A stretch of 49,003 nt of DNA from Candidatus Anoxychlamydiales bacterium (GTDB lineage Bacteria > Chlamydiota > Chlamydiia > Chlamydiales > SM23-39), in NCBI GenBank assembly GCA_011065045.1, contig JAAKFN010000001.1, positions 1 to 49,003 of the forward strand, given 5' to 3'. Numbering within the stretch: the stretch's first letter is position 1; each line of letters opens with the position of its first letter. The notes beneath the pieces were generated by a model. It worked only from the letters and a program-made list of their open reading frames with translations. It made no database searches and was not told the DNA's origin. This document shows, piece after piece, positions 1,620-37,039 of the stretch. The position numbers and the translations under genes are program-made.

Positions 1620-1635
1620 TTAAGGAGAAAAAAAG

Positions 1636-3075: not shown

Positions 3076-3076
3076 A

Positions 3077-4090: not shown

Positions 4091-4126
4091 AGTACCTATA
4101 ATTGTTTAGTGTAAAAAAAAAATGTA

Positions 4127-4163
4127 AAATTGTCTATTATTTGTAAGAAAAATAAATTATTTT
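4127..4163 (-). promoter_or_regulatory. Conserved 37-bp upstream element of OMP paralog 1
   Basis: aaattgtctattatttgtaagaaaaataaattatttt is identical to 5271..5307 and lies at the same distance (37-38 nt) upstream of each OMP start codon. Confidence 0.5.
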
Positions 4164-4219
4164 TTTATTAATATTTTCAAAATCAGAATTTACTAATATT
4201 TAATTAAAATTAAAGTGAA

Positions 4220-5233: not shown

Positions 5234-5270
5234 AGTACATTTATTTTCTTCATTGTAAGAAAAACTTGTG

Positions 5271-5307
5271 AAATTGTCTATTATTTGTAAGAAAAATAAA
5301 TTATTTT
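5271..5307 (-). promoter_or_regulatory. Conserved 37-bp upstream element of OMP paralog 2
   Basis: Identical 37-mer to 4127..4163. Confidence 0.5.
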
Positions 5308-5368
5308 CTTTAATTTTTGTAAAATTTTTATTAATATTTTTATAATTTTATTTTTCAATGGAGTTATT

Positions 5369-6739
5369 ATGAAACTTTTAAGAAAATTACGGTTTTTTTT
5401 AATTTTTATATTTTTTAGTTTTTTATCAATAAATAAACTTTGTTGTTTAGTTGAAAATGCAAAAAATCCAAAAATTATTGCTTATAACAATGGGAATATT
5501 TCAGCTATATGGACTAAAAACGATGGGACAAACGATATTATCCAATCGTCTTACTCTTCTGATTTTGGTCAAACTTGGTCAACTCCCATAAATTTATCCG
5601 TTAGTGGAGAGAATGCAGCAGAACCTAGATTTTCAAATGATAATAAAATAAGTAATTTATATGCTATTTGGAAGAGATTTGATGGCTTCAATGATATTAT
5701 TCAATTTTCTTCTTCAAAAGATTTTGGTATAAATTGGATTACGCCAAATAATTTATCAGATCTTGGACAAAATGCTTTTACTTCGCATATTACGACAGGT
5801 ATTTTTAATAATAAAATCTACGCACTTTGGGCAAGATCAAACTCAGCAAATGATTGGGCAAGACCAAGCGCAACAAATGATATTATCCAGTTTATAAAAT
5901 CTGTAGATGGAGGTATAACATGGTCTACAATAAAAGATCTTTCATTAGTAGGACAAGGCGCTTCAAATCCTCAAATATCAATAGATCAACTTCATTTTAA
6001 TTTATCAACTATTTGGAAAAGATCAAATGGAGTGAATGATATTATTCAATTTAGATTTTCTAAAGATTGGGGAGATACTTGGAATGATGAAGTTGATTTA
6101 TCGCATGCAAATAGAAATTCAAAAGATCCTAAAGTGATTTCTATATACAATAGCATCTATGCAATTTGGACTCAGACAGATGGAAGCTATGATGTAATTC
6201 ATTTTAAAGGCTCAAGAGATAGATCTTCCACATGGTTAAATTCTATTGCATTATCTAATGATAGGCAAACAGCTAAACATCCTCAGTTTATAGCTCCTAA
6301 TGGTGGGCAATTTATATATGCAATATGGGCAAGAAATAATGGTGTTAATGATATTATACAACTCATATATTCTTATGATTCAGGAACCACATTCTCTTCC
6401 GTAGTGGATTTATCAACTTCTGGACAAACAGCCAAAAATCCTGAGCTAACTTCAGATGAATATGGAAAATATATTTATACTACTTGGGCAAGATCAGATG
6501 GGCTAAACGATATTATTCAATTTTCAAGATCCATAGATTTTGGAAAAACGTTTTCTTCTGCAATAAATTTGTCACTTTCTGGACAGACAGCTAAAAATCC
6601 ATATATTACAACAGATATTTATGGATTAAATATTTATGTAATATGGGTAAGAAATGATGGAACAAAAGATGTAATTCAAATGGTTTATTCATCAGATTTT
6701 GGAGAGACGTTTTCTAATTCAATAATTATCTCAAACTAA
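5369..6739 (+). CDS. Secreted BNR/Asp-box repeat beta-propeller protein, subtype A (second copy)
   Basis: ggag RBS and leader MKLLRKLRFFLIFIFFSFL. It has the same LVENAKNP start and the same IYAIW.R..G.NDIIQ / S.DFG.TWS blades as 255..1619. Confidence 0.8.
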   Translation: MKLLRKLRFFLIFIFFSFLSINKLCCLVENAKNPKIIAYNNGNISAIWTKNDGTNDIIQSSYSSDFGQTWSTPINLSVSGENAAEPRFSNDNKISNLYAIWKRFDGFNDIIQFSSSKDFGINWITPNNLSDLGQNAFTSHITTGIFNNKIYALWARSNSANDWARPSATNDIIQFIKSVDGGITWSTIKDLSLVGQGASNPQISIDQLHFNLSTIWKRSNGVNDIIQFRFSKDWGDTWNDEVDLSHANRNSKDPKVISIYNSIYAIWTQTDGSYDVIHFKGSRDRSSTWLNSIALSNDRQTAKHPQFIAPNGGQFIYAIWARNNGVNDIIQLIYSYDSGTTFSSVVDLSTSGQTAKNPELTSDEYGKYIYTTWARSDGLNDIIQFSRSIDFGKTFSSAINLSLSGQTAKNPYITTDIYGLNIYVIWVRNDGTKDVIQMVYSSDFGETFSNSIIISN

Positions 6740-6753
6740 AAAGGAAAATACTC

Positions 6754-8094
6754 ATGTTTTTTCAATTTCAAAAATTAATTAAAATAAAAAATGTTAAAAA
6801 ACTTCTTTTTATTATTTTTATGTTCCCAACAATATTTTTTGCTCAAGAAATTTTATGGGATAATGCTATAGATTTATCTGTATCGGGGAGCGATGCTACC
6901 AATGTTCATATAGTAACTTCTAGCTCAGGGCAATATGTTCATACAGTTTGGGAAAGAAGTAATATAATACAATCTAGAAGTTCATCTGATTCTGGACAAA
7001 CATATGGAGTTGTAAAGGATGTTTCTCCTGGTGGTAAATTTACAACAGAGCCGCAAATAACAACAGATAGCTCTGGTCAACATGTTTATATAATATGGCG
7101 TAATCTTTCAGATAATACAATTCAAGTAGCATCTTCATCAGATTTTGGAGCAACCTTTCCGATAGCCTCAATTAAAACTCTAGAGTCAGGTATTTTTATT
7201 AACCCTTTGATTGTCACAGATAGTACAGGTCAGTTTGTTCATACCACATGGCAGGATCTCAGTGGTAATGTAAGTTCTATTTCTTCTTCAGATTTTGGAA
7301 AGACTTTTTCATTTGCACAAAATGTTTCTTTTACCGGGGGAGATTCTATCGAAGAAGTAAAAATAGATACGAATTCAACTGGACAATATGTTTACATCGG
7401 ATGGTCAAACGTTTCTTTGAATAAGATGCAAATTAATGTTTCATCAGATTTTGGCGTTACCTGGTCAGCTCCAACAGTAAGGACGATTCCTGGATCATTA
7501 AAATCTTCTGCTGGATTTGATTTAAGGATAGATAATACTGGACAGCATGGATATATTGTATGGGACGATTCAGGATTAAATATAAACATAAGTAGATCAT
7601 CGGACTTTGGAAATAGTTGGACAACTACAAAAATAATATCTGTCCTTTCTGTAACACGTCCTAGTTTAGATATTAGCGCTGATGGAAAATATGTACATGT
7701 TGTTTGGGTAAACTCTGGAACTACTGAAATATATGTAAGATCTTCATTAGATTTTGGAGCTAACTTTTCTTCTATTAAAACTTTATCAATAATACTTCCA
7801 GTAAATGATCAGCCTAGGATAGCTGTAAATGATATTGGAAATATAGTGCAGATTCTTTGGTATGGAAGTTCCGGTGGAATCGGTTTTATTTTTTCTAGAA
7901 CATCATTTGATTTTGGAAATACTTTTTCGCCTGCACAAACAATAACTTCTATATCTGGGGGTTTCTCTGAGATAGCAACTAATAGATCAGGTAGCCTATC
8001 ATTCAGTATATGGCCTACCGATCAGGGGATTGCGCAAACAAGCGCCGGCACTTTAATACCTGACAATAATATAAAGGAAATAATTAGACCATAG
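6754..8094 (+). CDS. Secreted BNR/Asp-box repeat beta-propeller protein, subtype B (second copy)
   Basis: Hydrophobic N-terminus. SSDFG[AKVN].[FW][ST] Asp-boxes recur, each preceded by D.[ST]GQ[HFY]V[HY]. It occupies the same position after a subtype-A gene as 1636..3075 does. Confidence 0.8.
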   Translation: MFFQFQKLIKIKNVKKLLFIIFMFPTIFFAQEILWDNAIDLSVSGSDATNVHIVTSSSGQYVHTVWERSNIIQSRSSSDSGQTYGVVKDVSPGGKFTTEPQITTDSSGQHVYIIWRNLSDNTIQVASSSDFGATFPIASIKTLESGIFINPLIVTDSTGQFVHTTWQDLSGNVSSISSSDFGKTFSFAQNVSFTGGDSIEEVKIDTNSTGQYVYIGWSNVSLNKMQINVSSDFGVTWSAPTVRTIPGSLKSSAGFDLRIDNTGQHGYIVWDDSGLNINISRSSDFGNSWTTTKIISVLSVTRPSLDISADGKYVHVVWVNSGTTEIYVRSSLDFGANFSSIKTLSIILPVNDQPRIAVNDIGNIVQILWYGSSGGIGFIFSRTSFDFGNTFSPAQTITSISGGFSEIATNRSGSLSFSIWPTDQGIAQTSAGTLIPDNNIKEIIRP

Positions 8095-17810: not shown

Positions 17811-19946
17811 ATGAAAGTATTTTTTTTATTAATATTTATATTAGTTTATGCGTGCTTTGTAAACGGGGCGTTTTGCAATGTTGATTCATATTTTGAACAT
17901 TTAGACAAAGTAAAGAAAGTTGAAAGTAAAATAAATAAGAGTCTGCCTTTTACTTATAATCAGATGTGTCTAGGAGGTTATTTTGCTATGCCATCTGCAA
18001 AAACAAATGATCCAGGCACTTTTGCATTTTGTTATTCTAATAGCTCTCCTTATCAGATCCTCAGTGCAAATTTTCAGTATTTCGATCGAGTAGAACTCTC
18101 TGGTAATTTTTGGATTTTTAAAAATGTATTAGAGCCAACTTTTGGGAAAATGGGATTCGGTGATGATGCAGATAGAGCTGCAAATATAAAATTTGCTCTA
18201 CTTAAAAAAAAAGATGGATTTGAGTTTTTACCTGAAATTGCTATTGGGTTAAATGATTTTTATGGATCAAAGAGGTTTTATTCAAAATACGTAGTTGTAA
18301 CAAAAGAGTTTTTTGATCAAAATTTTGAGGCGACTATCGGTTATGGTGGAGGAAGGATTAAAGGTTTTTTTGCGGGCCTTTCATATTTCCCATTTTTAAA
18401 AAAATCAAAGTATTTAAAAAACCTGAGCTTTTTAGCAGAACTAGATGCAAACGATTATAAAAATCATGATAGAGAACATCCAAAAGGTAGAGAGCAAAAT
18501 TTTCCGATAAATGTAGGACTTAATTTTTCCTTTTTAGATGTTTTTCAATTCTCCGTAAATTCTCTTAGAGGTAAAGAAATAGCAGGTTCTTTAACCGCAT
18601 CTTACAATATTGGAAAATCTAACGGGCTTTTTCCAAAATATCTAGACCCTCCTGTTTTTTCAGATTTTAGAAATCTTGATTTCTCAAATCTAAAAGAAGA
18701 AAAAGATTTTTCAAAAAATCTAGCCTTAGCTTTTAAAGATGAGGGATTAGATCTCATGAAGGCTTCTGTATTTGTTGATTCTAATGATAATAAATGCCTA
18801 GCTCTAAAAATTATTAATCAACGATATAGAAATGAGAAAATCTTAAAATTAAGAATACAAAATGTTTTAAGTTTTTTCCCATTAGATGATTATTATAGCT
18901 TAGTTGCAAGGGTGGAATCAGAAGGTATAAATCTTCATGAATACTCATTTAAAAAAGAGTATTTAAATTCTTTTAAAGAAAAAAAAATGGGGAGATTTGA
19001 ACTCGATGCTTTAACTCAAATAAAGGATTATTCATTAAAAGAAGATGAAAGTTTTTCAAAAGTTTTATATCTCAGAAAAAAAAGCCCCTACTCTTTATCT
19101 GTTCGTCCAAAAGTGAATGCTTTTTTCGGAGCTTGCAAAGGGAAATTCAAATATGACGCAGGATTTTTAGCAAACCTAGATGGTTATCTATTCGATGAGC
19201 TTTATTATAATTTGCAGCTAAGTTACATAGCGAAACAAGCAAGCGCTCAGGTTGGAAGCAAGGATATTTACAACCCATCTCAAATTATCAATGTTAGATC
19301 TGATTTTGTAAAATATTTTGAAACTAATTCATTTCATGTTGATACTGCTTTTATTCAAAAAAACTTCAATTTGAAAAAAGCTTTTTTTGCAAAAGTAGCT
19401 CTCGGTTATTTTGAAATAGCTTATGCAGGACTTGCTTTAGAGACTTTATATTATCCAATAAATTCAAGTTTTGCTTTTTCAATAGAGGCTGCAAATGTCT
19501 ATAAAAGAAAATATAGTGGGTTAAATTTTCAAAAAAAAATAAGAAAATTTAATAATGATAAAGAGGAATTTGAAAAATTTATAGGCTTGCAATATTTTTT
19601 GAATTTATATTTTGATGTAAAACCGCTTGACTTAACTTTTAAAACATCTATAGGTCAGTTTTTAGCAAAAGATAAAGGTATTAAATTAGAGATTTTAAAA
19701 TATTTTAAAAGTGGATTTGAGTTATCTACTTGGATAACTTTTACAGATAAAATCGATATCGTTAACTCTAAGAGGTATTTCGATAAAGGCTTTTCTTTTA
19801 GAATTCCTTTAGATCTTTTTATGAATAAGTCTTCTCGGAAAAGATTTAATTTTAAGATGTCTGAGTGGCTTAGAGACGTTGGAGCAAAATCTCAGACAGG
19901 AAAAGAATTGTACATGATCATTCATGATGAGAGAAATTCTTTGTAG
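17811..19946 (+). CDS. YjbH/DUF940-like outer-membrane protein (tentative)
   Basis: 711 aa with a signal peptide. Segments such as IGLNDFYGSKRFYSKYVVVTKEF, LGYFEIAYAGLALETLYYP and YFDKGFSFRIPLD resemble conserved YjbH-family blocks. This is recalled from the family pattern, not aligned. Confidence 0.45.
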   Translation: MKVFFLLIFILVYACFVNGAFCNVDSYFEHLDKVKKVESKINKSLPFTYNQMCLGGYFAMPSAKTNDPGTFAFCYSNSSPYQILSANFQYFDRVELSGNFWIFKNVLEPTFGKMGFGDDADRAANIKFALLKKKDGFEFLPEIAIGLNDFYGSKRFYSKYVVVTKEFFDQNFEATIGYGGGRIKGFFAGLSYFPFLKKSKYLKNLSFLAELDANDYKNHDREHPKGREQNFPINVGLNFSFLDVFQFSVNSLRGKEIAGSLTASYNIGKSNGLFPKYLDPPVFSDFRNLDFSNLKEEKDFSKNLALAFKDEGLDLMKASVFVDSNDNKCLALKIINQRYRNEKILKLRIQNVLSFFPLDDYYSLVARVESEGINLHEYSFKKEYLNSFKEKKMGRFELDALTQIKDYSLKEDESFSKVLYLRKKSPYSLSVRPKVNAFFGACKGKFKYDAGFLANLDGYLFDELYYNLQLSYIAKQASAQVGSKDIYNPSQIINVRSDFVKYFETNSFHVDTAFIQKNFNLKKAFFAKVALGYFEIAYAGLALETLYYPINSSFAFSIEAANVYKRKYSGLNFQKKIRKFNNDKEEFEKFIGLQYFLNLYFDVKPLDLTFKTSIGQFLAKDKGIKLEILKYFKSGFELSTWITFTDKIDIVNSKRYFDKGFSFRIPLDLFMNKSSRKRFNFKMSEWLRDVGAKSQTGKELYMIIHDERNSL

Positions 19947-20051
19947 CTTAATATATGTATTGATCTGTTTTCAAATTAATACCAAAGATAGAAGACTGTA
20001 AATTTAAAGATTCCAGATAAGGTTTTTATAGTGTTGCATAAGTCTTTTGTA

Positions 20052-20154
20052 ATACCATTTCTAAAAATTAGTTATCAAAAATAATTTTAAAGTCGTCTCT
20101 ACATTGAAAAAATAAAAATAAAGTTTTTTAACTATTGTTTTTTAGAAATGGTAT
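20052..20154. mobile_element. 103-bp MITE-like element, copy A (16-bp perfect terminal inverted repeats ataccatttctaaaaa)
   Basis: Its reverse complement matches 22309..22411 at 101 of 103 positions. Its own two ends are perfect inverted repeats of each other. Confidence 0.75.
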
Positions 20155-20215
20155 CAGTTTGCTGATTGCCAAGTCCTTTTAAGGGGGGCTAGGGCTTTAA
20201 GCGCGCCAGGAACGT

Positions 20216-20494
20216 TTATTGACACTGCCCTGTCTTTAAAATGAAGTCTACAGCCTCTTTAAACGTGCATTTCATAACTGACATTACTAAAGCTATTATA
20301 CTGTCTCCTCTGCAATTACATCCAAAACACTTATATAAGTTAGTTTTTACATCAAAAGATAAACTTTTAGTTTTTTCATCATGTCCATTAAAGCAATAGG
20401 CTTTTTTATCAGTTCCAATTTCTAATCCTAGGCTTTCAGCCACCTCTAATATGGGGGTGAACTTAGCTCTGTCTTTTGTTTCTTTATCAATCAT
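20216..20494 (-). CDS. CHC2 zinc-finger (DnaG-primase-type) domain protein
   Basis: C.NGHDEKTKSLSF...YKCFGCNCRGDSI fits the CHC2 pattern CP.H.EKTPSF...CFGCG..GD.I. It is only 92 aa, i.e. the finger without a primase catalytic domain. Confidence 0.65.
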   Translation of the reverse strand: MIDKETKDRAKFTPILEVAESLGLEIGTDKKAYCFNGHDEKTKSLSFDVKTNLYKCFGCNCRGDSIIALVMSVMKCTFKEAVDFILKTGQCQ

Positions 20495-20691
20495 TTTAAG
20501 TTAAGCTCGCCTTGTTGTTTATGGTTACCCTTTTCTTTTAAGTTTGAGAAGAACGATTCTAATATATAATTTACGGCTCTTGCTCTTGAGAATTTATTTT
20601 GCCAACGCCAGTTTTCTAAAATCTCAAATAGATGTGCATCAAATGTCATGCAGATGTTTTTTGTTTTCCGTTTACCTCTTATGTTACTCAT
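20491..20691 (-). CDS. Small ribbon-helix-helix-like DNA-binding protein (tentative)
   Basis: 66 aa, a basic N-terminus, then ICMTFDAHLFEILE...SRARAVNYILESF (beta-strand/helix/helix pattern of CopG/Arc type). Overlaps the downstream gene by 4 nt. Confidence 0.4.
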   Translation of the reverse strand: MSNIRGKRKTKNICMTFDAHLFEILENWRWQNKFSRARAVNYILESFFSNLKEKGNHKQQGELNLK

Positions 20692-20937
20692 TTTTGTTCT
20701 TTAAGTGTGGTTCATAAAGTACTAAAATAAATAATAATTCCCTAGAAATTCTTATAGATCAGCTACTCGCCGCTGCTTGACCATTCAAATTTTGCACAAA
20801 GTCGAGTTAATCTAACATACAGATTTATAAAAAGTTATGAAAAAAAACCACATCGCAATTGCCTTTTTTAAATTTTAATTTGATAGAAAATATTTTTTCT
20901 TTAATAATAGAATGTAAATTTTAAAAGGCGGTGATTT

Positions 20938-21345
20938 ATGAGCGCTTCATCTTCTACAGAGAAGACAGATCAATCTTTAAAAGAAGGCTTTGCGGCTGGT
21001 GTATTCTCTGCCTGGGGAGCTCAAGCTGCAGGGGAGTTTGTAAAGGATCGGATATTTGGTCCTGTAAAAAAAACATCCATTGCATTTGCAGAAAATTTTA
21101 GAAGAGGAGATGCTATTTCTTTAGAAAGGAAACAAGAGTTTCAATTCTATATGGAAAGTCAAAAAGAACAAGAAAACTATTTTCGTTTAAAACGTGAAGT
21201 GACTAAATTAGCATTAGAGCAAAAGATTGATCCTTTTATGCTAATTAGAGTAATGGAAAAGCAACAAGAATTATCATATTTGTCTGGTAGAGAATGTACA
21301 ATATTGTCACAAGTGAAAAAATCAATAAATGAGGAAAAAAAATAA
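20938..21345 (+). CDS. Hypothetical protein (cassette gene)
   Basis: 135-aa ORF with an RBS-like aaggcgg upstream. Visibly higher G+C than the surrounding DNA. Its stop overlaps the next ATG (TAATG). Confidence 0.5.
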   Translation: MSASSSTEKTDQSLKEGFAAGVFSAWGAQAAGEFVKDRIFGPVKKTSIAFAENFRRGDAISLERKQEFQFYMESQKEQENYFRLKREVTKLALEQKIDPFMLIRVMEKQQELSYLSGRECTILSQVKKSINEEKK

Positions 21346-21428
21346 TGAAGAGTACAGAAATTTATATCCCGCCACCTCCATACGGAGAGTACATAAAATA
21401 TCTTGCAACAGGGACAATTATTATTTAA
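21345..21428 (+). pseudogene. Truncated 27-aa paralog of the N-terminus of the 21575..21910 ORF
   Basis: MKSTEIYIPPPPYGEYIKYLATGTIII* aligns with MIQTQTYLPNIPWSEYGKYVVVGTGIFL.... It is part of a ~230-bp degenerate tandem duplication. Confidence 0.5.
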
Positions 21429-21574
21429 GCAGCAAACAACAGAATTAGCTCTCCAACGAAGGCTGATCCATTCTTGATCATTAGAGTGTTGGAAGAGTAA
21501 CAATGTAAAGAAGATCTAGATGGAAAAGATATTGCAATATTAAGACAAATTCAAGAAAAAATAGAGGAAAAAAC

Positions 21575-21910
21575 ATGATACAAACACAAACTTATCTTCC
21601 CAATATTCCCTGGAGTGAGTACGGTAAATATGTAGTAGTAGGGACTGGAATTTTTTTAACCGCCTATCCAATAAAAAAAGGTGTTGAAAATGCGCTAGAA
21701 AAAAAGGTAGATGATGTTGCCTCCCGATCCCGATTGGCACACGTTGCAAGTACTGTCTACGGAGGAGGAATTGCGTATCTATTGAAAGCAATATATTCAA
21801 AGTCTTTACAAGTTCCAGAAGTGGTTATTTTAGCTGGAGGTTTCCTTGGCCTCATTGGGTCTTCTTCATGTCTTTGGAAAAGATGTTTGAGTCGGGCAAG
21901 AAAACAATAG
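21575..21910 (+). CDS. Hypothetical small membrane protein (cassette gene)
   Basis: 111 aa with hydrophobic segments (YVVVGTGIFLTAY, VVILAGGFLGLIGSSS). The paralogous fragment upstream supports this strand over the overlapping minus-strand ORF. Confidence 0.5.
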   Translation: MIQTQTYLPNIPWSEYGKYVVVGTGIFLTAYPIKKGVENALEKKVDDVASRSRLAHVASTVYGGGIAYLLKAIYSKSLQVPEVVILAGGFLGLIGSSSCLWKRCLSRARKQ

Positions 21911-21934
21911 AAGGCTCTCTCAAAGGTATTTAAG

Positions 21935-22261
21935 ATGGTTGCTCAAACTATCGACACTTATAAACCTATCGGGATTTATGATTATACTCATACAAATGGG
22001 AAAGAATGGCAAATACGCTTTGAAAGACCAATTAATAAAGAACAAGCTAAGAAACCAAATTCAATTAGAGCGTATACAGCTGATTTAACAAAAAACCCCC
22101 CTCATGTATCGATGATATTTGCTACGAACATTATACTTGAGAACGGCGAAGCTATTTCAAGCCTTCAAACACACGAGCAAAATCTTGTTATTGATGACTT
22201 GATCCGTGGAACCAGAAACATCACAGTTGTAGATAGCTTCCTGGGGCAACTGATCCAATAG
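21935..22261 (+). CDS. Hypothetical protein (cassette gene)
   Basis: 108-aa ORF with no family recognised. It ends 48 nt before MITE-like copy B. Confidence 0.45.
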   Translation: MVAQTIDTYKPIGIYDYTHTNGKEWQIRFERPINKEQAKKPNSIRAYTADLTKNPPHVSMIFATNIILENGEAISSLQTHEQNLVIDDLIRGTRNITVVDSFLGQLIQ

Positions 22262-22308
22262 AATGAGTCCCCGCAACAATCATTTTGATATTTTATAAAT
22301 GCAATTTT

Positions 22309-22411
22309 ATACCATTTCTAAAAAATAATAGTTAAAAAACTTTATTATTATTTTTTCAATGTAGAGACGACTTTAAAATTATTTTTGATAACTAATTTTT
22401 AGAAATGGTAT
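22309..22411. mobile_element. 103-bp MITE-like element, copy B (inverted relative to copy A)
   Basis: Has the same 16-bp terminal inverted repeats. It differs from the reverse complement of copy A at 2 positions. Confidence 0.75.
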
Positions 22412-22508
22412 AATTAGCGGTCTATATGTATGAATATGGCCAATTAAATTTCTTCATTACAAAACCAACTAAATTTGGTAATATGGATAGCAAAGGAAAT
22501 ATGATCAG

Positions 22509-22673
22509 ATGCCGTTAAGTGGGAAAAAGATGGCTATGCTAAAATAAAAGACGGAATAAGGAAGCCACATGAAATATAGAAAGGATAATAAAACAGTAAT
22601 TATTCCTAATCATAAAGAATTAAAAAGAGGATTAGAAAAAGCTTTGTTAAAGTTTTTAAAGGAGATCAAATAA
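22509..22673 (+). pseudogene. hicA: hicA-like toxin gene, disrupted by frameshifts/stops
   Basis: HicA-like pieces lie in three frames: MPLSGKK..., ...WEKDGYAKIKDGIRKPH..., and MKYRKDNKTVIIPNHKELKRGLEKALLKFLKEIK*. The last piece ends in TAATG overlapping the hicB start. No single frame spans the region. Confidence 0.55.
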
Positions 22674-23098
22674 TGCGTTATCATTTTAAAATGCATAAAG
22701 AAGGAAAGAGCTTTTGGGCTGAATGTCTAGAACTTAAAGGCTGTATTACTCAAGGAAATTCTAAGGCAGAATTATTAGAAAATATGCAAGAAGCTCTTAA
22801 TTTATACTTAGAAGAGCCTGAAAATTCTTCATATTTAGCTCCTTTACCAAAAAAAATAAAAAAAACTACTGCTTCTATAATTGAAGTTCACGTAGATCCT
22901 GAAATTGCTTTTTCATTTCTGGTTAGATATTACAGAATTAAAAATAATATGACTCAAGCTGAATTAGCTAAAGAACTTGGATTTAAAAGAATTTATAGTT
23001 ATCAACGCCTTGAGAGAAAATGTAATCCTACTCTTGAGACTATTTTTATGATAAAAAGTTTTTTTCCTGAATTTTCCATTGATTATGCTCTTTCATGA
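22673..23098 (+). CDS. hicB: HicB-family antitoxin with C-terminal XRE-type HTH
   Basis: The N-terminus YHFKMHKEGKSFWAECLELKGCITQGNSKAELLENMQEALNLYLEE is the HicB/UPF0150 pattern. The C-terminus NNMTQAELAKELGFKRIYSYQRLERKCNPTLETI is a Cro/C1-type HTH. Confidence 0.8.
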   Translation: MRYHFKMHKEGKSFWAECLELKGCITQGNSKAELLENMQEALNLYLEEPENSSYLAPLPKKIKKTTASIIEVHVDPEIAFSFLVRYYRIKNNMTQAELAKELGFKRIYSYQRLERKCNPTLETIFMIKSFFPEFSIDYALS

Positions 23099-23353
23099 AA
23101 AAACTCAGATATTTCCAAAAATTACTAGTTTGAAATTTATTTTTTTATCTTTTACATTACATTTAAAGAATCTGTTTCTTTTAATGCTAAATTTAACTCT
23201 ATTTTCCACGCTCTTCCTTTGTTTGAAAGAGTGACATTTTAATTTAGCCGAAATGTGATTTTTCTACCTAGCTCTAACAAGAATTTGTTTCTTCTTTACA
23301 AAAAATATTTTATTTGTAAACAATGTTTGCAAATTATTTTTTGAAATAAAAAA

Positions 23354-26300
23354 ATGCTGCGTTTATTTTTTGTTTTTTTCTTAGTTAATTTCCATATATT
23401 TGCAAACAATTTTGAAACAAATTTTCAAGCAACCGTTGCAGCAGAACCTTCCGTGATGTTAGAAGGTTGTGTAAACTTAATGACAGGTCAGTTGTACATA
23501 AATGACGTTGATATAATAGCAGAGGGAAAAGAGCCAATTTACTTTTCAAAATCTTATACCAGTATGTTTTCTGCGTATTCTTTAGACGATCTTATTGGTA
23601 GGTGGTCTGAAATTGAAGATGCCGTAAATGAGGGATGGGGAGGGGATAAACATGTGATGGCATATATTGGATATGACTATGAGAGAAAAAAAGATTATTA
23701 TATTAGAGCTAATAGAAGAGCAGATGTATATGATCCAAACGGAACAATGTTGAGTTTTGAGTTTCCTCAAGTTAAACCACCTAAAAAAAAATTTTGGGAC
23801 ACCAAAGAAGAAAAAAAAGAAAAAAAACAAGAATTTGAAGATGAAAAAGCTAAAACAAGACCTTTAAAATTAATAGAAAATCAAAATTTTTATCAAAAAG
23901 CTATTACGAATGCAAAGGATAACTATAAGAATACTACAGCTAAAGCTCATGGAGAGCACAACTTAAGAGTTAAATCACCTAACGGAACAATAAGGCATTA
24001 TTATAGAAAAGATGCCGCTTTTGATCCCTATTCACTTGAATGGGAAATCCTTCCAAATGGGAATAAACTTGAATATATTGTAAAAGATCATGAGCTGAAA
24101 GAAATAAAAAGTAAAAGTCCAAGTGGCAAAATCTATGCTCGGTTAACATTAAATAAAATTTATCAAAAAGATAAAACTTTAGTAGTAGAGACTAATTCTC
24201 AGAAAACAATCAAATATGAATATAAAAAAGAAAAAATAAAAGATGAAAACAAAGAAAAAAAGGAAAAAAGTTTTTTAGGACATAAAACATCTCCATATGG
24301 AGATGAACATTTTGAATATCATAAAAATAAGTTTTTCTTATTAAAAACTTGTATTTACCCTCAAAATAGGCTTTTTCAAATTGAGTATTACGACAATAAC
24401 AAAAAAAAAGACTGGAAAAGGGTCTCGGAGCTCAAATCATATTTAGGTAAAGCTCAAAATTTAAAAACTCTTTATCGAATTTATTATGAACAAATACCTG
24501 AGTTAAACAAAACAAAAGGCCAAACAACTCTCATAGATGCAAATGGGAATCAAACTAAATATTTTTTTTCAACAAAACTTAGATTAGAAGGAATTGAAAG
24601 ATTTGAAAATGTTAATGGTGGGCAGAAGTTTAAAAATTTTGAAGAATTTATTTGGAGGGATAATGGCTTTTTTCTTGGTCAAATATATATCAATGAACAC
24701 AGGCAACGAGTAAAAGCTATAAGAAATATCTATGGTGGGAACACAGGAAACATAATAAGTCAAATAACTTATGGAAATATATCTGGAAAATGTAATAAAT
24801 CTATCGAGCTAGGTAGTGATAATTTGCCCATAGATAATGGGATTGAAATGTATGTGAAAAATTATACATATAGCAATAATAATCAAATCAAATCTGAGAT
24901 CGATCAAAACTCTTTTGGAACTGAATATACCTACCTTACAATGAAAATTCATGGAGAAGATTTTGAAACAAGTTTACCTTTAACAAAATTTACAATTTTT
25001 AATTCAGAGATAAAGAAAAGAATTTTTTATTCATATGATAACGATAATGTTTTAATAGAAGAGATTGAAGATAATGGTGTCTCTCGACAAAAAGAGAATT
25101 TAGAAGGAGTAACTAGAAGGATAATTAAAAGAATAGAGCCTCAGACAAAAGAACCATATGGTTTAGCCGAGTATGTTAAAGAGTATTATTATGACATAGA
25201 TGAAAAAGTAGAGAAGTTTCTAAAAAAAGAAAAATATGAATATTCAAAAAGTTGCAAAGTTATAAAAAAACATGTTTTTGGATCAGACGATGAACTGAAA
25301 TATACTCTAAATTATGAATATGATCCCAGTAATGATAATTTAATTTCTGAAAATGATCCTTTAGGAAGAAAAGCATTTTATAACTATGACAAAAACAGCA
25401 ATAAAATTTATGAAAAGACTTTTACTAACAAGGAAATATATTTTGAATATGATCTATGTAATAGATTAGTTTCAAAAACGATTAAAGATAAGAAGCAAAA
25501 CTACATTGAAGAATATGAATATGATGCTAAGCATAATAAAATTTCTCAAAAGGATTTTTATGGAAATATCACTAGGTTCAACTATGATTCTTTAGGAAAT
25601 GTTATCGAAGAGATTTCTCCAAAGACTGAAGATTGTTTTGGAATAGCTTCTTTTTCCAAAAAGTGTTTTGAATATGACGCGTTTTCTAGACAAATTAAAA
25701 AAACAGATGAAAAGGGAAATTCAACAAATATTTCCTATAATATTTTTGATCAACCAATAAAAATTGAATACCCCGATGCTACTACAGAGGAATTTGAATA
25801 TAACTTAGATGGAACTCTAAAACATCACATAGATCAAATTAAAACAAAAATTGAGTATACATATGATTATTTGAAAAGAGTTATTTCAAAAACAATACTA
25901 TCTCCTACAAATGATGTTTTATCAGAGGAGTTTTTTGAATATGATGCTTTTAATCTTATTTCAAAAACTGATAGGGCTGGAAATATCACAAAATATACTT
26001 ATGATGGAGCCGGAAGAAAGATAAAAGAAGAAGTTTTTTCTGAGGCGCAATCTAATCTTTCAAAAGAAGAGTATTTTTATGATGAACTTGGGTTTTTAGA
26101 AAAAACTTTTAAAGCTGATTCTTTATTTACCATTTATAAAAGAGATTTTCTTGGAAGAGTATTAGAAGAAAAACAAAAAGATATTAATGGTTATGAGCTT
26201 AGAAAAGTTCAACATCAATACGATGATAAAGAGAATAAAAAAATTATTATTTTATATATATCAGAAGGGGAGTCTAAAGAAACAAAGACATTTGATTCAT

Positions 26301-33531: not shown

Positions 33532-33700
33532 TTAACCGAAGTGGTTAAATTATTTTTTCTATAGTATAGGAAAATTTAAAAAAATTAAGCATTTGATTTT
33601 TTTTTAATTTTTCAGATAAAATGTTTTGAGATATTGAAATCTTTAGATTGATTTTGAAAAAAAACGATTTTGCTTAAACCCTTAAATTTATGGTAGCTAA

Positions 33701-35122
33701 ATGATTATAACGTTTGATCAAATTATAACAAATATAGCTGTGGGAGATTTAGATTTACAAAACGATCTTCTTGAGGATGTTAGGAATAATAAGGCTCTTT
33801 TCGATGATCTAATTAAATATTATGAATATTTATGTAGAAATTTAAAATCGGTGCATTCTAATGATTTCAATAAAATGTTTGTTTTGATAAATATTTTAGT
33901 CTTGGCCAAAGGAGACAAAGCATTTAATTGTTTTTTCTCTTTCATAAATAAAATAAATAAACTTGAAGAAACTATATTTTACGAAGAGTTTAACATATTA
34001 GAAGTTTCATGTATTTTATATCAATGCGTAAAGAGCGAGTGGACTCTTTTGAAAAAGATAATTGAGCATCCAAATTTAGAAATGTTTTGGAAAATAATTG
34101 CTGTGGATGCTTTTTGTTATTGTGTGGCAGCAAAAAAAAACCCAAGAACAAATGCAATCAATTATCTCAAAAAAACGCTTTGCAAAAACATTGCTGAAAA
34201 TAAAGAATGCACTCATTTAGTATTTGCTTGTAATTTTATCAACCCTAAAGAGGTAATTGAAGAAATAAAAAATGCATATACAAGATTTTTAGTATCGGAT
34301 GCTATAACTATAGATGAAGTGTTAGATAGTGCAAAAATGCCCATTAAAAAATTAATGAAAGAGTTAAAAGATGCTCTTCCAACTAAAAACGATTGTTTAG
34401 AATCTCTTAGATACATGTTTTCTAGTAAAGGCGATAGAAATGTTGAAAACCCTACTAAACCTGCTGCGAAGAAAAAAAAGAAAGAGGAAAAGAATCTTAT
34501 TAATAATGAAAAGGATTTTTTGAAATCTCCTGTGGTTAATTTTTGCCTTCCTGCGATTCATTTTGATTTAAGTGAGAATCAATTATTGGATGAAATTGAA
34601 AAATCAGATCATGCTCTTTTATTAAAGTTCTTTGATCAAAATAAACCAGATAAAATTAATGAAAAAAGTTTTTCTCTAGTATTGTCGTTAAAAGAAAAAT
34701 ACTCCCATATACCACTGTTTTGGCATTTAATTGATGGAATTTACATGGTTAAAAACATGGTTGATAAATCCATTGAAATATTATTTTATATGGTAGAAAA
34801 ATTTCCAGATGATTTAATGACCAAAATAAAATATGGTGAATATCTTCTTAGGAGAGGAGAGTATGATAAAATTGCTAAATTTTTTGATAATAAATTCACT
34901 TTGCAATCCTTATATCCTGAAAAAGAGAGCTTTTTTATAGAGGATTTTCAAATATTTTCAAGTTTTATGATAGCATATTTTGCTACAATTGGAAAATTTA
35001 AAGAGGCTGATTTTTATTTAAATGGCTTGAAGCAGTTCTCTGATAATAAACAGGTAATTTCAGATCTAGAAGAGATGGTAGGAGATCTTCTTCACCGTCA
35101 TAAAAAAAAACTTTTAATTTGA
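33701..35122 (+). CDS. Hypothetical protein
   Basis: 473-aa ORF with a lysine-rich linker (KPAAKKKKKEEK) in the middle and a helical-repeat-looking C-terminal half. No family recognised. Confidence 0.5.
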   Translation: MIITFDQIITNIAVGDLDLQNDLLEDVRNNKALFDDLIKYYEYLCRNLKSVHSNDFNKMFVLINILVLAKGDKAFNCFFSFINKINKLEETIFYEEFNILEVSCILYQCVKSEWTLLKKIIEHPNLEMFWKIIAVDAFCYCVAAKKNPRTNAINYLKKTLCKNIAENKECTHLVFACNFINPKEVIEEIKNAYTRFLVSDAITIDEVLDSAKMPIKKLMKELKDALPTKNDCLESLRYMFSSKGDRNVENPTKPAAKKKKKEEKNLINNEKDFLKSPVVNFCLPAIHFDLSENQLLDEIEKSDHALLLKFFDQNKPDKINEKSFSLVLSLKEKYSHIPLFWHLIDGIYMVKNMVDKSIEILFYMVEKFPDDLMTKIKYGEYLLRRGEYDKIAKFFDNKFTLQSLYPEKESFFIEDFQIFSSFMIAYFATIGKFKEADFYLNGLKQFSDNKQVISDLEEMVGDLLHRHKKKLLI

Positions 35123-35321
35123 TTGATTCTAAGTTTTAAATTTAACGATTATTGTAAATTCCTATAGATTTTTCTGTAAGCCTCTAATTTAAAATAAAGC
35201 AAGTAATTCCCGTTAAAAAAAATCGCAATGTTGATTTTGAGGTGTTATTCATCTGGGATTTATTTAATTTAGCTTGGTTTTCAAAGCTCTGCCATAAGTT
35301 ATTGCATACAAGTGATATAAA

Positions 35322-35372
35322 GCTATAGCCGGCGAAATCTCTATGATTTGAGTAGATTTCGCTGACTATAGC
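35322..35372. promoter_or_regulatory. Imperfect long hairpin (gctatag-ccg-gcgaaatct / agatttcgc-tga-ctatagc)
   Basis: 7+9 bp stems separated by a 3-nt internal mismatch, with a 13-nt loop. Confidence 0.35.
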
Positions 35373-35444
35373 GCTAAAATGAGCTGTTTTTCAAAAAAAC
35401 ACTTGATTTTTAATGATATTTCTGTAAAATATGATGTTAAACCA

Positions 35445-35475
35445 GCGAAAACTACCTAATATTAGGTGATTTCGC
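35445..35475. promoter_or_regulatory. Hairpin/operator-like palindrome gcgaaaact-acctaatattaggt-gatttcgc just upstream of the ATPase RBS
   Basis: Perfect 14-bp palindrome acctaatattaggt flanked by the gcgaaa/tttcgc arms also used in the 35322..35372 hairpin. It ends 20 nt before the ATG at 35495. Confidence 0.4.
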
Positions 35476-35494
35476 CCGTAATAGGACGAAAATA

Positions 35495-36955
35495 ATGAAA
35501 AAAATTTGTGGAAGAGAGAAAGAACTTAAAATTTTACAAAAAATACTTTATTCCGAAAACCCAGAATTTTTAGCAGTTTATGGAAGAAGAAGGATAGGAA
35601 AAACTTATTTAATAGATCGGTTTTTTCAAGATAAAGGAATCTATTTTCATTTTACAGGGGTGAAAGGTGCTTCGACAAAGGAACATCTTAAACTATTTAG
35701 TTTTGCTTTAGAATCACGTTTGGTAATTGATGAAAAAGCACCGAATATTAAAACGTGGATTGAGGGTTTTAATTTTTTAAGAAAAAAAATATCAAAGATA
35801 GATAAAAACAAAAAAATTATTATTTTTTTCGATGAACTTCCTTGGATTGATACTCCAAAATCAGGATTTTTAAAATTTTTGGAACATTTTTGGAATGATT
35901 TTTTTTCGCGTAGACCTAATTCAATATTAATTGTATGTGGATCATCAGCTTTTTGGATGATTGAAAAAATTATACATAATAAAGGGGGGTTGCATAATCG
36001 TTTAACAGCAACCATACATTTGGAAGCGTTCAATTTAGGAGAAACTGAAAAATTTTTAAATTTTAAAAATATTGAATTAAATAAAAAACAAATTATTGAT
36101 TTATATATGGTTACGGGAGGAGTTGCTCAATATTTAACATATGTTGAAAGGGGGCAATCAGTAGCACAGATAATTCAAAATTTATGTTTTAAAAAAAACG
36201 CACCTTTAATGAAAGAATATCACGAACTTTTTGCTTCACTATTTGATGAACATAGTGAACATTTAGTTATTATAGAAGCTTTAGCAAATAAAAGATCTGG
36301 ACTAACTCAATCAGAAATTTTAAAAATAACAAAAAAATCTTCTGGAGGGTCTTTTTCAAAAATTTTGGAAGAATTAAAAGAGGCTGGATTTATTGATTTT
36401 ATTCCTGCATTTAACAAGAAAAAGAAAAATGGTAAATTTTTTTTAGTTGATGAATATTCATTTTTTTATCTTATTTGGCTTAAAGATTTTTCTAATTCTA
36501 ATTTTCAACCTTTAATGGAAGATTATTGGTTAGTCATGCAAGGAACAGCTAAATATGCTGTGTGGTCAGGATTTGCCTTTGAAACACTTTGTAGAACACA
36601 TTTATCGCAAATCATAAAAGCTTTAAACCTTCAAGTTGTAGCTATTAATGCTGTGAATTGGAGTTATATTTCTAAAAATAATAAAGATCGTGGAATTCAA
36701 ATAGATCTTATTATCGATCGAAGAGATGGCTGTATGAATATTTGCGAAATTAAGTTTCATAATAAAGAATTAACGTTTAGTTTCGAAGATGTAAAAAAAA
36801 TTAAATATAGAAGAGAAAATTTTAGAGAAGTATCTAAAACAAAAAAAGTTTTATTTAATACTCTGATATCAATTTATGGGGCAAAAAATAATTCTAATTT
36901 CCAAGAAGCATTTGATAATCAAGTGTTCATTGATGATCTTTTTAATACCTTTTGA
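35495..36955 (+). CDS. ATPase_2 (archaeal-type AAA) / DUF234 family ATP-binding protein
   Basis: GRE.EL..L, Walker A YGRRRIGKTYL, Walker B IIIFFDELPW, and a winged-helix-like middle (SGLTQSEILKITKKSSGGSFSKILEELKEAGFI). The C-terminal IDLIIDRRDG..NICEIKF is DUF234/restriction-endonuclease-like. Confidence 0.7.
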   Translation: MKKICGREKELKILQKILYSENPEFLAVYGRRRIGKTYLIDRFFQDKGIYFHFTGVKGASTKEHLKLFSFALESRLVIDEKAPNIKTWIEGFNFLRKKISKIDKNKKIIIFFDELPWIDTPKSGFLKFLEHFWNDFFSRRPNSILIVCGSSAFWMIEKIIHNKGGLHNRLTATIHLEAFNLGETEKFLNFKNIELNKKQIIDLYMVTGGVAQYLTYVERGQSVAQIIQNLCFKKNAPLMKEYHELFASLFDEHSEHLVIIEALANKRSGLTQSEILKITKKSSGGSFSKILEELKEAGFIDFIPAFNKKKKNGKFFLVDEYSFFYLIWLKDFSNSNFQPLMEDYWLVMQGTAKYAVWSGFAFETLCRTHLSQIIKALNLQVVAINAVNWSYISKNNKDRGIQIDLIIDRRDGCMNICEIKFHNKELTFSFEDVKKIKYRRENFREVSKTKKVLFNTLISIYGAKNNSNFQEAFDNQVFIDDLFNTF

Positions 36956-37039
36956 TAAATTTGATAAAAACCTTGCCCATTGCTGATAAAAGTTAAAAGA
37001 GATATTCTTAAATTATTAAAAAATTTGGGAGACTCTAAA

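What the first reader, a model, noticed from the sequence alone, without database searches (positions are those of the whole stretch)
20052..22411. 2.1-kb foreign-looking cassette bracketed by two inverted copies of a 103-bp MITE-like element
The elements at 20052..20154 and 22309..22411 are reverse complements of each other at 101 of 103 positions. Each copy also ends in perfect 16-bp terminal inverted repeats (ataccatttctaaaaa ... tttttagaaatggtat), which is the hallmark of a non-autonomous transposable element.

Between them lie:
- A CHC2 primase-type zinc-finger ORF.
- An RHH-like ORF overlapping it by 4 nt.
- Three or four small ORFs of unknown function.

This stretch is visibly richer in G+C than the flanks. 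One 60-nt line I counted at 20941-21000 has 26 G+C.

The structure could be any of the following:
- A composite, MITE-flanked mobile cassette.
- An invertible segment, since homologous recombination between inverted repeats flips it.
- The remnant of an integrated phage or plasmid replication module.

No transposase or recombinase is present in the window.
Basis: seen in the sequence. Interest (0 to 1): 0.65.

Follow-up and report, generated by a model that had tools for sequence, protein, structure and literature searches.

The report
Mini-transposon pair flanking decayed mobile DNA
Two inverted copies of a roughly 100-bp non-coding transposable element, from a family not previously described in uncultured marine chlamydiae, sit on either side of a broken leftover of a plasmid- or phage-type replication module inside a 17-kb strain-specific island; this is real but ordinary genome litter, with no evidence that it acts as a switch or a working transposon.

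Summary
Window 20052-20154 and 22309-22411 are inverted copies, identical at 101 of 103 positions. Each has perfect 16-nt terminal inverted repeats (ATACCATTTCTAAAAA).

The element is a genuine miniature inverted-repeat transposable element (MITE). At least 13 further insertions (92-106 nt, all intergenic, two subfamilies, plus truncated halves) occur in Anoxychlamydiales genomes and their two source metagenomes. No autonomous parent element was found.

The 2.15 kb between the copies is a mosaic:
- A 0.5-kb block holds a weakly supported RHH-like gene plus the N-terminal quarter of a roughly 350-aa zinc-finger/Toprim primase. The block recurs at 94% identity in another metagenome, without the element.
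- An operon of three small genes has no detectable relatives. It carries a partial internal duplication.

The segment lies at the left edge of a roughly 17-kb island (19947-36977). This island is inserted where three relatives have yjbH directly next to thyX.

My best reading is that the element proliferated and caused rearrangement in dispensable mobile-element debris. A composite transposon or an inversion switch is not excluded but has no support: no second copy of the cassette, no unambiguous target duplication, and no transposase or recombinase in the window.

Novelty: a new member of a known kind. Interest is low.

The parts
20052..20154 (+). Left copy of the element (103 nt, 'A' orientation). 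The A-end (ATACCATTTCTAAAAATTAGTTATC...) faces outward toward yjbH, and the B-end faces the cassette.
   Evidence: It is 17% G+C. It folds as a long AU-rich hairpin, z = -4.95. It differs by 2 substitutions from the family consensus, one of them private.
22309..22411 (-). Right copy of the element (103 nt), the reverse complement of the left copy at 101 of 103 positions. Its A-end faces outward toward hicA/hicB.
20155..20233 (-). Pseudogene tail of the primase (linker region). It is 52% G+C, has in-frame stops, and ends at the inner edge of the left copy.
   Evidence: Translation. G+C. tblastn of primase P0126 runs through this stretch. Homology with L022 ends at 20234.
20216..20494 (-). 92-aa CHC2 zinc-finger ORF. 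It corresponds to the N-terminal quarter of a roughly 350-aa zinc-finger/Toprim primase of mobile-element type.
   Evidence: Pfam PF01807 3.5e-11. PADLOC RTasDnaG-like 6.8e-20, matching profile positions 41-121 of 550. Most of the best matches among 1.8 billion representative proteins are 335-375 aa, with the match at their N-terminus. They carry Zn_ribbon_DnaG plus Toprim_2.
20491..20691 (-). 66-aa putative RHH-like DNA-binding protein, translationally coupled to the zinc-finger ORF through an ATGA overlap.
   Evidence: No sequence-family hit. The AF2 model has pLDDT 74.5, with an extended N-terminus followed by two helices. The top Foldseek hits are CopG, Arc, YiiF and CopA_SO, but only at E > 3. 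Support is weak.
20234..20738 (-). Block shared at 94% nucleotide identity with Logan contig L022 (ERR10503210). There the neighbours are different and no copy of the element is present.
   Evidence: L022 keeps a frameshifted continuation of the primase to about residue 190.
20938..21345 (+). 135-aa ORF of unknown function, first gene of a small operon with no detectable relatives.
   Evidence: No hits in Pfam, PHROGs, NCBIfam or PADLOC. No viral relatives.
21345..21569 (+). Degenerate partial tandem duplication. 21345-21416 is a 24-codon match to the N-terminus of the 111-aa gene, and the 27-codon ORF fragment it belongs to runs to 21428. 21459-21569 is a decayed copy of the C-terminus of the 135-aa gene.
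   Evidence: tblastn: p135 residues 96-132 match 21459-21569 at 43% (E = 9e-5); p111 residues 1-24 match 21345-21416 at 46%.
21575..21910 (+). 111-aa ORF with hydrophobic stretches. A small membrane protein is my inference from the sequence.
21935..22261 (+). 108-aa ORF. The only match in the 5.8-billion-protein collection is itself.
   Evidence: The AF2 model is uninformative at pLDDT 49.7.
22385..22414 (+). Outward-facing promoter-like site: TTGATA, 18 nt, then TGgTATAAT. The -35 box and half of the -10 box come from the A-end of the element, and the rest comes from the flank. It points into hicA(pseudo)/hicB.
   Evidence: Consensus scan, 11 of 12 matches plus TG. The TTGATA-N18-TAT part is present in all 17 copies examined. 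This is a consensus match only; function is not shown.
22509..22673 (+). hicA pseudogene with two in-frame stops and a short internal deletion, next to an intact hicB at 22673-23098. This is flanking context and not part of the cassette.
19947..36977 (.). Strain-specific island of about 17 kb between yjbH and thyX. It contains the cassette, hicAB, a 1834-aa RHS protein with small downstream ORFs, a Fic fragment, a DUF1186 protein and an ATPase_2 protein.
   Evidence: Synteny with L023, L024, L027, L030 and L031. Pfam.

Best explanation
The two 103-bp repeats are copies of a non-autonomous DNA transposon (a MITE). They carry a 16-nt perfect and roughly 30-nt imperfect terminal inverted repeat and have no coding capacity. 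The family is specific, as far as the searchable data show, to Anoxychlamydiales-type chlamydiae.

The copies landed, or one was copied locally from the other, in AT-rich intergenic DNA of a dispensable 17-kb island. That island sits where relatives have yjbH directly next to thyX.

The DNA between the copies is not a functional unit. It consists of two parts:
- A decayed fragment of a mobile element's replication module: a small repressor-like gene plus the first quarter of a zinc-finger/Toprim primase. Intact relatives of this primase sit in an HTH-primase-DnaB helicase arrangement.
- A three-gene operon with no detectable relatives and its own partial duplication.

The left copy marks the point at which the primase gene is cut off, and the rest of the gene is not on the other side of it. 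An element-associated deletion or rearrangement therefore removed the remainder, rather than a simple insertion (inferred).

The element can move only if a transposase is supplied in trans, and none is encoded in the window. The pair may occasionally recombine, because the two copies share 76 nt of uninterrupted identity. The A-end carries an outward promoter-like sequence that might read into hicB. Both of these effects are inferred and not shown.
For: **It is a MITE family**
- The genome-collection scan with the pattern inverted repeat-N56-86-inverted repeat found copies in three Anoxychlamydiales genomes assembled from metagenomes.
- The metagenome scan with the 22-nt A-end found 12 contigs.
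- About 13 distinct insertions have different flanks, fall into two subfamilies and include truncated halves.
- All copies are intergenic.
- There is no Rfam match.

**The primase is a remnant**
- The best homologues are 335-375-aa zinc-finger plus Toprim_2 proteins, matched only over their first roughly 86 residues.
- The closest one (P0124, 60% identity) is encoded between an HTH_17 gene and a DnaB_C helicase gene.
- A 94%-identical RHH plus zinc-finger block in L022 keeps a frameshifted primase up to about residue 190, with no copy of the element and different neighbours.
- A stop-riddled tail reaches the edge of the left copy.
- No primase remainder lies beyond either copy.

**The setting is a variable island**
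- Relatives L027, L030 and L031 have yjbH followed by thyX within 54-225 bp.
- L023 and L024 have a single unrelated gene there.
- Nucleotide homology with the window stops at the yjbH stop codon (19941-19945) and resumes at 36978-36980.

**The element marks rearrangement breakpoints elsewhere**
- L016 versus L018 and L005 versus L015 are 98% identical up to and through the element, then diverge at its end.

**No enzymes in the window**
- No transposase or recombinase domain matched among the 42 window ORFs covered by scans and precomputed annotations.
Against: - No target-site duplication can be read. The ends ATA...TAT are palindromic and invariant, so a 2-bp TA or AT duplication cannot be told apart from the inverted repeat itself.
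- No autonomous parent with the same ends was found.
- The copy number in the source genome itself is unknown. Only this 49-kb window, part of a 75-kb scaffold, was readable.
- The two window copies are each other's nearest relatives (98.1% against 96.1% or less to any other copy). In L008 another inverted pair shares nine private variants. That pattern hints at a shared origin of paired copies, which is also what a composite or replicative-inversion origin would predict.
- All data come from short-read metagenome assemblies, which can misjoin at 100-bp repeats.
Confidence: 0.7

Rival explanations
1. Composite transposon bounded by two MITE copies. A transposase supplied in trans recognises the two outermost inverted repeats and moves the whole 2.36-kb unit, as in TIME-COMPs, integron mobilisation units or MITE-flanked integrons.
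For: - Both outer ends are intact, perfect inverted repeats.
- The two copies are near-identical and are each other's closest relatives.
- Two further independent inverted pairs bracket 1.5-3.8 kb of unrelated genes in related genomes: L008, and L011/L019.
- IS630-family transposase genes or pseudogenes exist in those genomes.
- MITE-bounded composites are documented elsewhere (PMC13367494 and PMC6382973).
Against: - The cassette proteins are on record at this one locus only.
- The one related block elsewhere (L022) lacks the element, and its homology ends inside the cassette.
- The outer flanks (…TTTTGTA and AATTAGC…) show no direct repeat.
- L011 and L019, which carry the same cargo, are orthologous loci and not transposed copies.
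- No transposase is in the window, and no parent element with matching ends was found.
Confidence: 0.12
2. Invertible segment. Homologous recombination between the inverted copies flips the 2.15-kb interior and changes expression of the flanking or internal genes.
For: - The copies share 76 nt of uninterrupted identity. Both differences lie in the 27 nt nearest the cassette.
- Contigs of related strains diverge at the ends of the element, which is consistent with recombination at these repeats.
Against: - No site-specific recombinase matched among the window ORFs scanned.
- The only promoter-like sequence tied to the element points outward from the outer end, so a flip would not reposition it.
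- The interior genes carry their own divergent intergenic region (20692-20937).
- The assemblies on record agree on one orientation, and the inner element parts of the Logan unitig match the window's copy-specific differences. A unitig that stops inside the repeat cannot exclude a minority orientation.
Confidence: 0.08
3. A single 2.36-kb transposon whose true ends are 103-bp long terminal inverted repeats, so that the repeats are not independent elements.
For: The geometry alone fits: two inverted 103-bp arms at the extremities.
Against: - Complete solo copies with both sub-terminal repeats occur at many unrelated sites.
- Each arm is itself bounded by inverted repeats.
- The interior encodes no transposase.
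Confidence: 0.02
4. Assembly artefact. The metagenome assembler joined unrelated contigs through a shared 100-bp repeat, so the cassette does not really lie between yjbH and hicAB.
For: - These are short-read metagenome assemblies.
- The Logan unitig L002 breaks inside both repeats.
- Elsewhere, contig pairs diverge at the ends of the element.
Against: - Two long contigs on record carry the same arrangement.
- The two copies differ at two positions, and those differences are consistent between the scaffold and the independent Logan unitig.
Confidence: 0.05

Closest known systems
Bacterial MITEs of about 100 bp, such as Correia elements (Neisseria) and RUP (Streptococcus pneumoniae, attributed to an IS630-family transposase). 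From my own knowledge, not tested here.
   Same: About 100 bp, terminal inverted repeats, non-coding, dispersed intergenic copies, hairpin-forming, and a candidate outward promoter at one end. A TA or AT dinucleotide at the junctions is compatible with IS630/Tc1-type insertion.
   Different: There is no sequence similarity to anything in Rfam or in the plasmid and phage collections. The parent element and the target duplication are unresolved. The hosts are uncultured Anoxychlamydiales, for which the searchable literature describes no MITE.
MITE-bounded composite structures: TIME-COMPs (PMC13367494), integron mobilisation units, MITEAba12-type elements (PMC6382973).
   Same: Two copies of a miniature element bracket a few kilobases of cargo.
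   Different: In those cases the unit is seen at several sites with flanking duplications and the parent transposase is known. Here there is a single locus, no duplication and no parent, and the cargo is pseudogene debris rather than a selectable gene.
Zinc-finger (CHC2)/Toprim primases of integrative or plasmid-like elements, encoded as HTH/repressor-primase-DnaB helicase modules.
   Same: The 92-aa ORF is 60% identical to the N-terminus of such a primase (P0124). It is preceded by a small DNA-binding-like gene in the same order and orientation.
   Different: Only about a quarter of the primase remains. The Toprim domain and the helicase are absent.
RHH (CopG/Arc/MetJ) repressors.
   Same: The size and the predicted strand-helix-helix layout agree. 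CopG, Arc and YiiF are the top structural matches.
   Different: No significant sequence or structure score was obtained: Foldseek E > 3, and no Pfam or PDB sequence hit.

Membership tests
MITE (miniature inverted-repeat transposable element) | Small size, tens to a few hundred bp, with no coding capacity | tested here: met
   92-106 nt, 17% G+C, no ORF.
MITE (miniature inverted-repeat transposable element) | Terminal inverted repeats | tested here: met
   A 16-nt perfect and roughly 30-nt 80% inverted repeat, conserved in nearly all copies.
MITE (miniature inverted-repeat transposable element) | Multiple dispersed copies at unrelated sites | tested here: met
   About 13 distinct insertions in 3 genomes and 2 metagenomes, plus 2 in the window. 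The copy number in the source genome itself was not measurable.
MITE (miniature inverted-repeat transposable element) | Target-site duplication flanking each copy | tested here: inconclusive
   There is no direct repeat outside ATA...TAT. A 2-bp TA or AT duplication would be hidden in the palindromic ends, and no empty site was available.
MITE (miniature inverted-repeat transposable element) | A related autonomous element with the same ends that encodes the transposase | tested here: not met
   None was found in the genome, metagenome or viral scans. Loci holding only the A-end are truncated copies. The IS630-like genes in L011 and L018 have different ends.
Composite transposon | Two copies of one element bracketing cargo | tested here: met
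Composite transposon | The same unit present at more than one site, or a duplication flanking the whole unit | tested here: not met
   One locus only. The outer flanks are not repeated. The related block in L022 lacks the element.
Composite transposon | A cognate transposase available | tested here: inconclusive
   None was found in the 49-kb window. The rest of the genome was not readable.
Programmed invertible segment (invertase-type switch) | Inverted repeats flanking the segment | tested here: met
Programmed invertible segment (invertase-type switch) | A site-specific recombinase encoded nearby | tested here: not met
   No recombinase domain matched among the window ORFs scanned.
Programmed invertible segment (invertase-type switch) | Both orientations present in the population | not testable with these tools
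   No read data. The assemblies show one orientation.
DnaG-type CHC2 zinc-finger/Toprim primase | CHC2 zinc ribbon | tested here: met
   PF01807, E = 3.5e-11.
DnaG-type CHC2 zinc-finger/Toprim primase | Toprim catalytic domain | tested here: not met
   The ORF stops at 92 aa, the tail is stop-riddled and ends at the left copy, and no Toprim match occurs anywhere nearby.
RHH (CopG/Arc/MetJ) DNA-binding proteins | Strand-helix-helix fold with a significant match to family members | tested here: inconclusive
   Two helices follow an extended N-terminus at pLDDT 74.5. The top Foldseek hits are CopG and Arc but at E > 3. There are no HMM hits.

The most novel reading that the evidence does not exclude
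The element is an active, horizontally spreading MITE of uncultured anaerobic chlamydiae. Its copies are up to 96% identical between this organism and the Anoxychlamydiales genomes found in the genome scan. It characteristically generates inverted sister pairs that bracket, and can mobilise in trans, small gene cassettes. That would be a route for gene shuffling between chlamydial plasticity islands.
Probability: 0.12. Interest if true: 0.45.

Novelty: new member of a known kind. Interest (0 to 1): 0.25.

Why it matters
Chlamydiae are usually regarded as poor in mobile DNA. A conserved family of this kind, together with IS630/IS5 debris, primase and helicase remnants, toxin-antitoxin and RHS loci in a hotspot between yjbH and thyX, shows that environmental anaerobic chlamydiae have active plasticity zones.

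On a practical level, the element is a 100-bp repeat that breaks or misjoins metagenome assemblies of these organisms. Its 22-29-nt invariant A-end is also a convenient marker for finding them.

Beyond that, the locus is ordinary. It adds a family to a known class and reveals no new mechanism.

Tried and rejected
**Searches that found nothing useful**
- blastn of the whole 2.36 kb against plasmid and phage collections gave no match.
- Rfam at permissive threshold gave no match.
- Exact look-ups of YjbH, HicB and the zinc-finger protein, looking for an alternative arrangement or an empty site in the same samples, returned only the same scaffold and one unitig.
- A word-indexed homologue search for the 108-aa protein found only itself. 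For the zinc-finger protein it found only one close relative.
- Viral-contig scans for the 135-aa protein and for the element found nothing. For the primase they found one distant hit.
- The AF2 model of the 108-aa protein had pLDDT 49.7 and was not searched further.
- A literature search for the sample accessions returned nothing.

**Candidate parent elements that did not fit**
- The IS630 pseudogene next to a copy in L007/L011 lies outside the element, and its right end resembles the element only in ...TGGTAT.
- The intact 307-aa IS630-like gene in L018 has unrelated ends.
- Loci holding only the A-end (L009, L017, L012) turned out to be truncated copies and not longer elements.

**Tests of how the primase was truncated**
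- I tested whether the missing part of the primase continues beyond the left copy (simple insertion) or beyond the right copy (past inversion). Local alignments were no better than shuffles, or were inconsistent between two reference primases.
- I looked for the inverted-duplication signature expected from replicative intramolecular transposition at the window and L008 pairs. None was visible (reasoned from the flanks).

**Relatedness of the hosts**
- I tried to measure how related the element-bearing genomes are to this organism. They share no genes with the window, so the horizontal-transfer idea stays untested.
Full report
**1. The observation**

The sequence is as described.
- Window 20052-20154 and the reverse complement of 22309-22411 are identical at 101 of 103 positions. 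Similarity stops abruptly at ATACC... and ...GGTAT.
- The 16-mer ATACCATTTCTAAAAA occurs exactly at the four element ends. Shuffles give a mean of 0.51 matches at up to 2 mismatches, and 0 of 100 shuffles reach the observed 5.
- The inverted repeat within each copy extends imperfectly to about 30 nt.
- Each copy folds into a long AU-rich hairpin, z about -4.4 to -5.
- The ORF inventory is also correct. A 92-aa CHC2 zinc-finger ORF at 20216-20494(-) (PF01807, E = 3.5e-11) overlaps a 66-aa ORF at 20491-20691(-) by 4 nt. ORFs of 135, 111 and 108 aa lie on the other strand.
- The G+C claim is true but weak. The interior is 34.5% against 29.4% for the window, in the top 2.2% of windows of equal size. 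The counted line does have 26 G+C.
- No transposase or recombinase domain matched among the 42 window ORFs covered by scans and precomputed annotations. These are the 39 non-nested ORFs of at least 90 aa plus three shorter ones.

**2. Source**

The window comes from an ENA metagenome scaffold, BAEC19-1_SAMN10402039 scaffold_673, 75 kb. The gene content points to Chlamydiae: a 716-aa GreA, which I know to be a typical chlamydial size, and YjbH homologues labelled Chlamydiae or Anoxychlamydiales.

**3. The 103-bp element is a real MITE family**
- A scan of one genome per species with ACCATTTCTAAAAA-N56-86-TTTTTAGAAATGGT returned five contigs. All are from three Candidatus Anoxychlamydiales genomes assembled from metagenomes: KR126_chlam_5, KR126_chlam_4 and K1060_chlam_1.
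- A metagenome scan with the invariant 22-nt A-end returned 12 contigs. All carry the accession prefixes SDBT01 or SDBU01, and four of them are the same contigs as those from the genome scan.
- After removing duplicates there are about 13 distinct insertions. They are 92-106 nt long and fall into two subfamilies, of 103 and 106 nt. Three are truncated half copies. The ends are almost invariant and the centre is variable.
- All copies lie between ORFs.
- Nothing similar is in Rfam, plasmids, phages or viral contigs.
- The searchable literature has no MITE described for Chlamydiae.

Two defining features remain open.
- The target duplication cannot be read, because the junctions are the palindromic and invariant ATA...TAT. 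A 2-bp TA or AT duplication of the IS630/Tc1 type is compatible but unproven.
- No autonomous parent with these ends was found. IS630-family genes occur in the same genomes, but their ends differ.

**4. What lies between the copies**

The interior is a mosaic.

*Block A (20155-20738).* This holds the 66-aa gene and the zinc-finger ORF.
- An exhaustive phmmer search of 1.8 billion representative proteins shows that most of the best relatives of the 92-aa protein are 335-375 aa long. They match it only with their N-terminal 80-90 residues.
- These relatives carry Zn_ribbon_DnaG plus Toprim_2.
- The closest one (P0124, 357 aa, 60% identity) is encoded in an HTH_17-primase-DnaB_C helicase module.
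- The window ORF is therefore the first quarter of a mobile-element primase.
- Its reading frame continues as a stop-riddled, 52% G+C tail up to the inner edge of the left copy.
- A Logan contig from another run (L022, ERR10503210) carries the same 66-aa gene and zinc finger at 94% nucleotide identity, but only over window 20234-20734. It has a frameshifted primase continuation to about residue 190, a different upstream neighbour (a PDC-S02-type nuclease C-terminus), and no copy of the element.
- The 66-aa protein is RHH-like only weakly. AF2 gives an extended N-terminus plus two helices at pLDDT 74.5. CopG, Arc, YiiF and CopA_SO top the Foldseek list, but at E > 3. No HMM or PDB sequence hit exists.

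*Block B (20739-22308).* This is a divergently oriented operon of three small proteins with no family hits in four libraries.
- The 108-aa protein has no relative other than itself among 5.8 billion clusters.
- Between the 135- and 111-aa genes lies a decayed partial tandem duplication of the junction between them.

**5. The setting changes the picture**
- The YjbH protein has close homologues at 91, 86 and 79% identity, and more distant ones at about 61%.
- In L027 (86%), yjbH is followed after 225 bp by thyX. In L030 and L031 (about 61%), the gap is 54-56 bp. In L023 and L024 (91%), one unrelated SLFN/AlbA_2 gene lies between them.
- Nucleotide homology with the window ends at the yjbH stop codon (19941-19945) and resumes at 36978-36980, the start of thyX.
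- Window 19947-36977 is therefore a strain-specific island of about 17 kb at an ancestral yjbH|thyX junction.
- Besides the cassette, the island holds a hicA pseudogene with an intact hicB. It also holds a 1834-aa RHS protein followed by five small ORFs, a Fic fragment, a DUF1186 protein and an ATPase_2 protein.
- The cassette is the leftmost 2.4 kb of this island and not an isolated insertion into conserved DNA.

**6. How the pair most likely arose and what it does**

The left copy separates the truncated primase from the yjbH flank. The rest of the primase lies beyond neither copy. The junction is therefore a deletion or rearrangement end point rather than a plain insertion (inference).

The same behaviour appears elsewhere. 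L016 versus L018, and L005 versus L015, are 98% identical up to and through the element and diverge at its end. Misjoins by the assembler at the repeat could mimic this.

Inverted pairs recur.
- L008 has 1.47 kb between its copies. L011/L019 have 2.5-3.8 kb between theirs, and are orthologous loci in two metagenomes.
- In the window and in L008 the partners are each other's nearest relatives, at 98.1%. The L008 partners share nine private variants.
- This points to local re-insertion or gene conversion.
- Direct pairs would be lost by deletion, so some survivorship bias toward inverted pairs is expected (inference).

A functional role for the pair is not supported.
- No recombinase was found among the ORFs scanned, and no promoter that I could identify would be repositioned by a flip.
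- The only promoter-like sequence tied to the element (TTGATA-18-TGgTATAAT, 22385-22414) points outward from the outer end toward hicB. It is a consensus match only.

**7. Rivals**
- *Composite transposon.* The geometry and published precedents (PMC13367494, PMC6382973) allow it. However, the cassette is known from one locus only, the related block lacks the element, the outer flanks carry no duplication, and no transposase is at hand. I give it about 0.12.
- *Recombinational inversion.* It is mechanistically possible with 76 nt of uninterrupted identity, but it is untestable here and would have no evident consequence. I give it about 0.08.
- *A single transposon with long terminal repeats.* The solo copies contradict this.
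- *Misassembly.* This is unlikely. Two long contigs on record carry the same arrangement, and an independent Logan unitig carries the copy-specific differences in the expected places.

**8. Verdict**

The repeat pair is real and is a MITE. The family appears to be undescribed and confined to Anoxychlamydiales-type chlamydiae in the data I could search. The so-called cassette is decayed mobile-element DNA plus an operon with no detectable relatives, inside a larger variable island. This is a new member of a known kind, of modest interest mainly to people who study chlamydial genome plasticity or who assemble these genomes.

Noticed in passing
window 19947-36977: A strain-specific island of about 17 kb sits where relatives have yjbH directly next to thyX. 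It carries hicAB, an 1834-aa RHS protein with five small downstream ORFs that might be immunity or orphan modules, a Fic fragment, a DUF1186 protein and an ATPase_2 protein. The closest sister genome has a single SLFN/AlbA_2 gene at this spot, so this looks like a recurrent hotspot.
   Followed up: partly
window 22509-22673: hicA is a pseudogene with two in-frame stop codons and a short internal deletion. The adjacent hicB (22673-23098) is intact. The right copy's outward promoter-like site lies about 95 nt upstream.
   Followed up: partly
window 21345-21569: A decayed partial tandem duplication covers the junction between the 135-aa and 111-aa genes. It consists of a 27-codon copy of the p111 N-terminus and a degenerate copy of the p135 C-terminus.
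   Followed up: yes
L008 7235-7337 and 8809-8911: This is another inverted pair of the element. Its two copies are 98% identical to each other but at most 90% identical to every other copy, and they share nine private variants. The pair therefore arose locally, by a local hop, an inverted duplication or gene conversion.
   Followed up: partly
L016 1120-1222 vs L018 11679-11781; L005 739-841 vs L015 123-220: Contigs from the two related metagenomes are 98% identical up to and through the element, then diverge at its end. This indicates either element-mediated rearrangement between strains or assembler misjoins at the repeat.
   Followed up: partly
L011 (=L007) 432-1624; L018 9959-11446: The genomes that carry the element also hold several other remnants near copies: an IS630-family transposase pseudogene abutting a copy, an IS5-like fragment, an intact 307-aa IS630-like gene, and a truncated DnaB_C helicase (122 aa).
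   Followed up: partly
L023 7450-7640: The intergenic region downstream of yjbH in the sister genome contains three copies of the motif TTTTACTGTATTATT(G/A)TG. This may be a set of operator-like sites upstream of the SLFN/AlbA_2 gene.
   Followed up: no
window 177-8094: This stretch holds a cluster of paralogous genes: three BNR-repeat proteins (1636-3075, 5369-6739, 6754-8094), a 480-aa ORF of similar size with no Pfam match at E <= 1e-5 (177-1619), and two tandem Legionella_OMP-type outer-membrane proteins (3077-4090, 4220-5233).
   Followed up: no
window 35495-36955 vs L023 91-1551: The island's ATPase_2 gene is about 67% identical at the nucleotide level, over about 0.4 kb, to an ATPase_2 gene that sits at a different position in the sister genome, upstream of the NYN/YacP gene. 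It is either a relocated gene or a paralogue.
   Followed up: no
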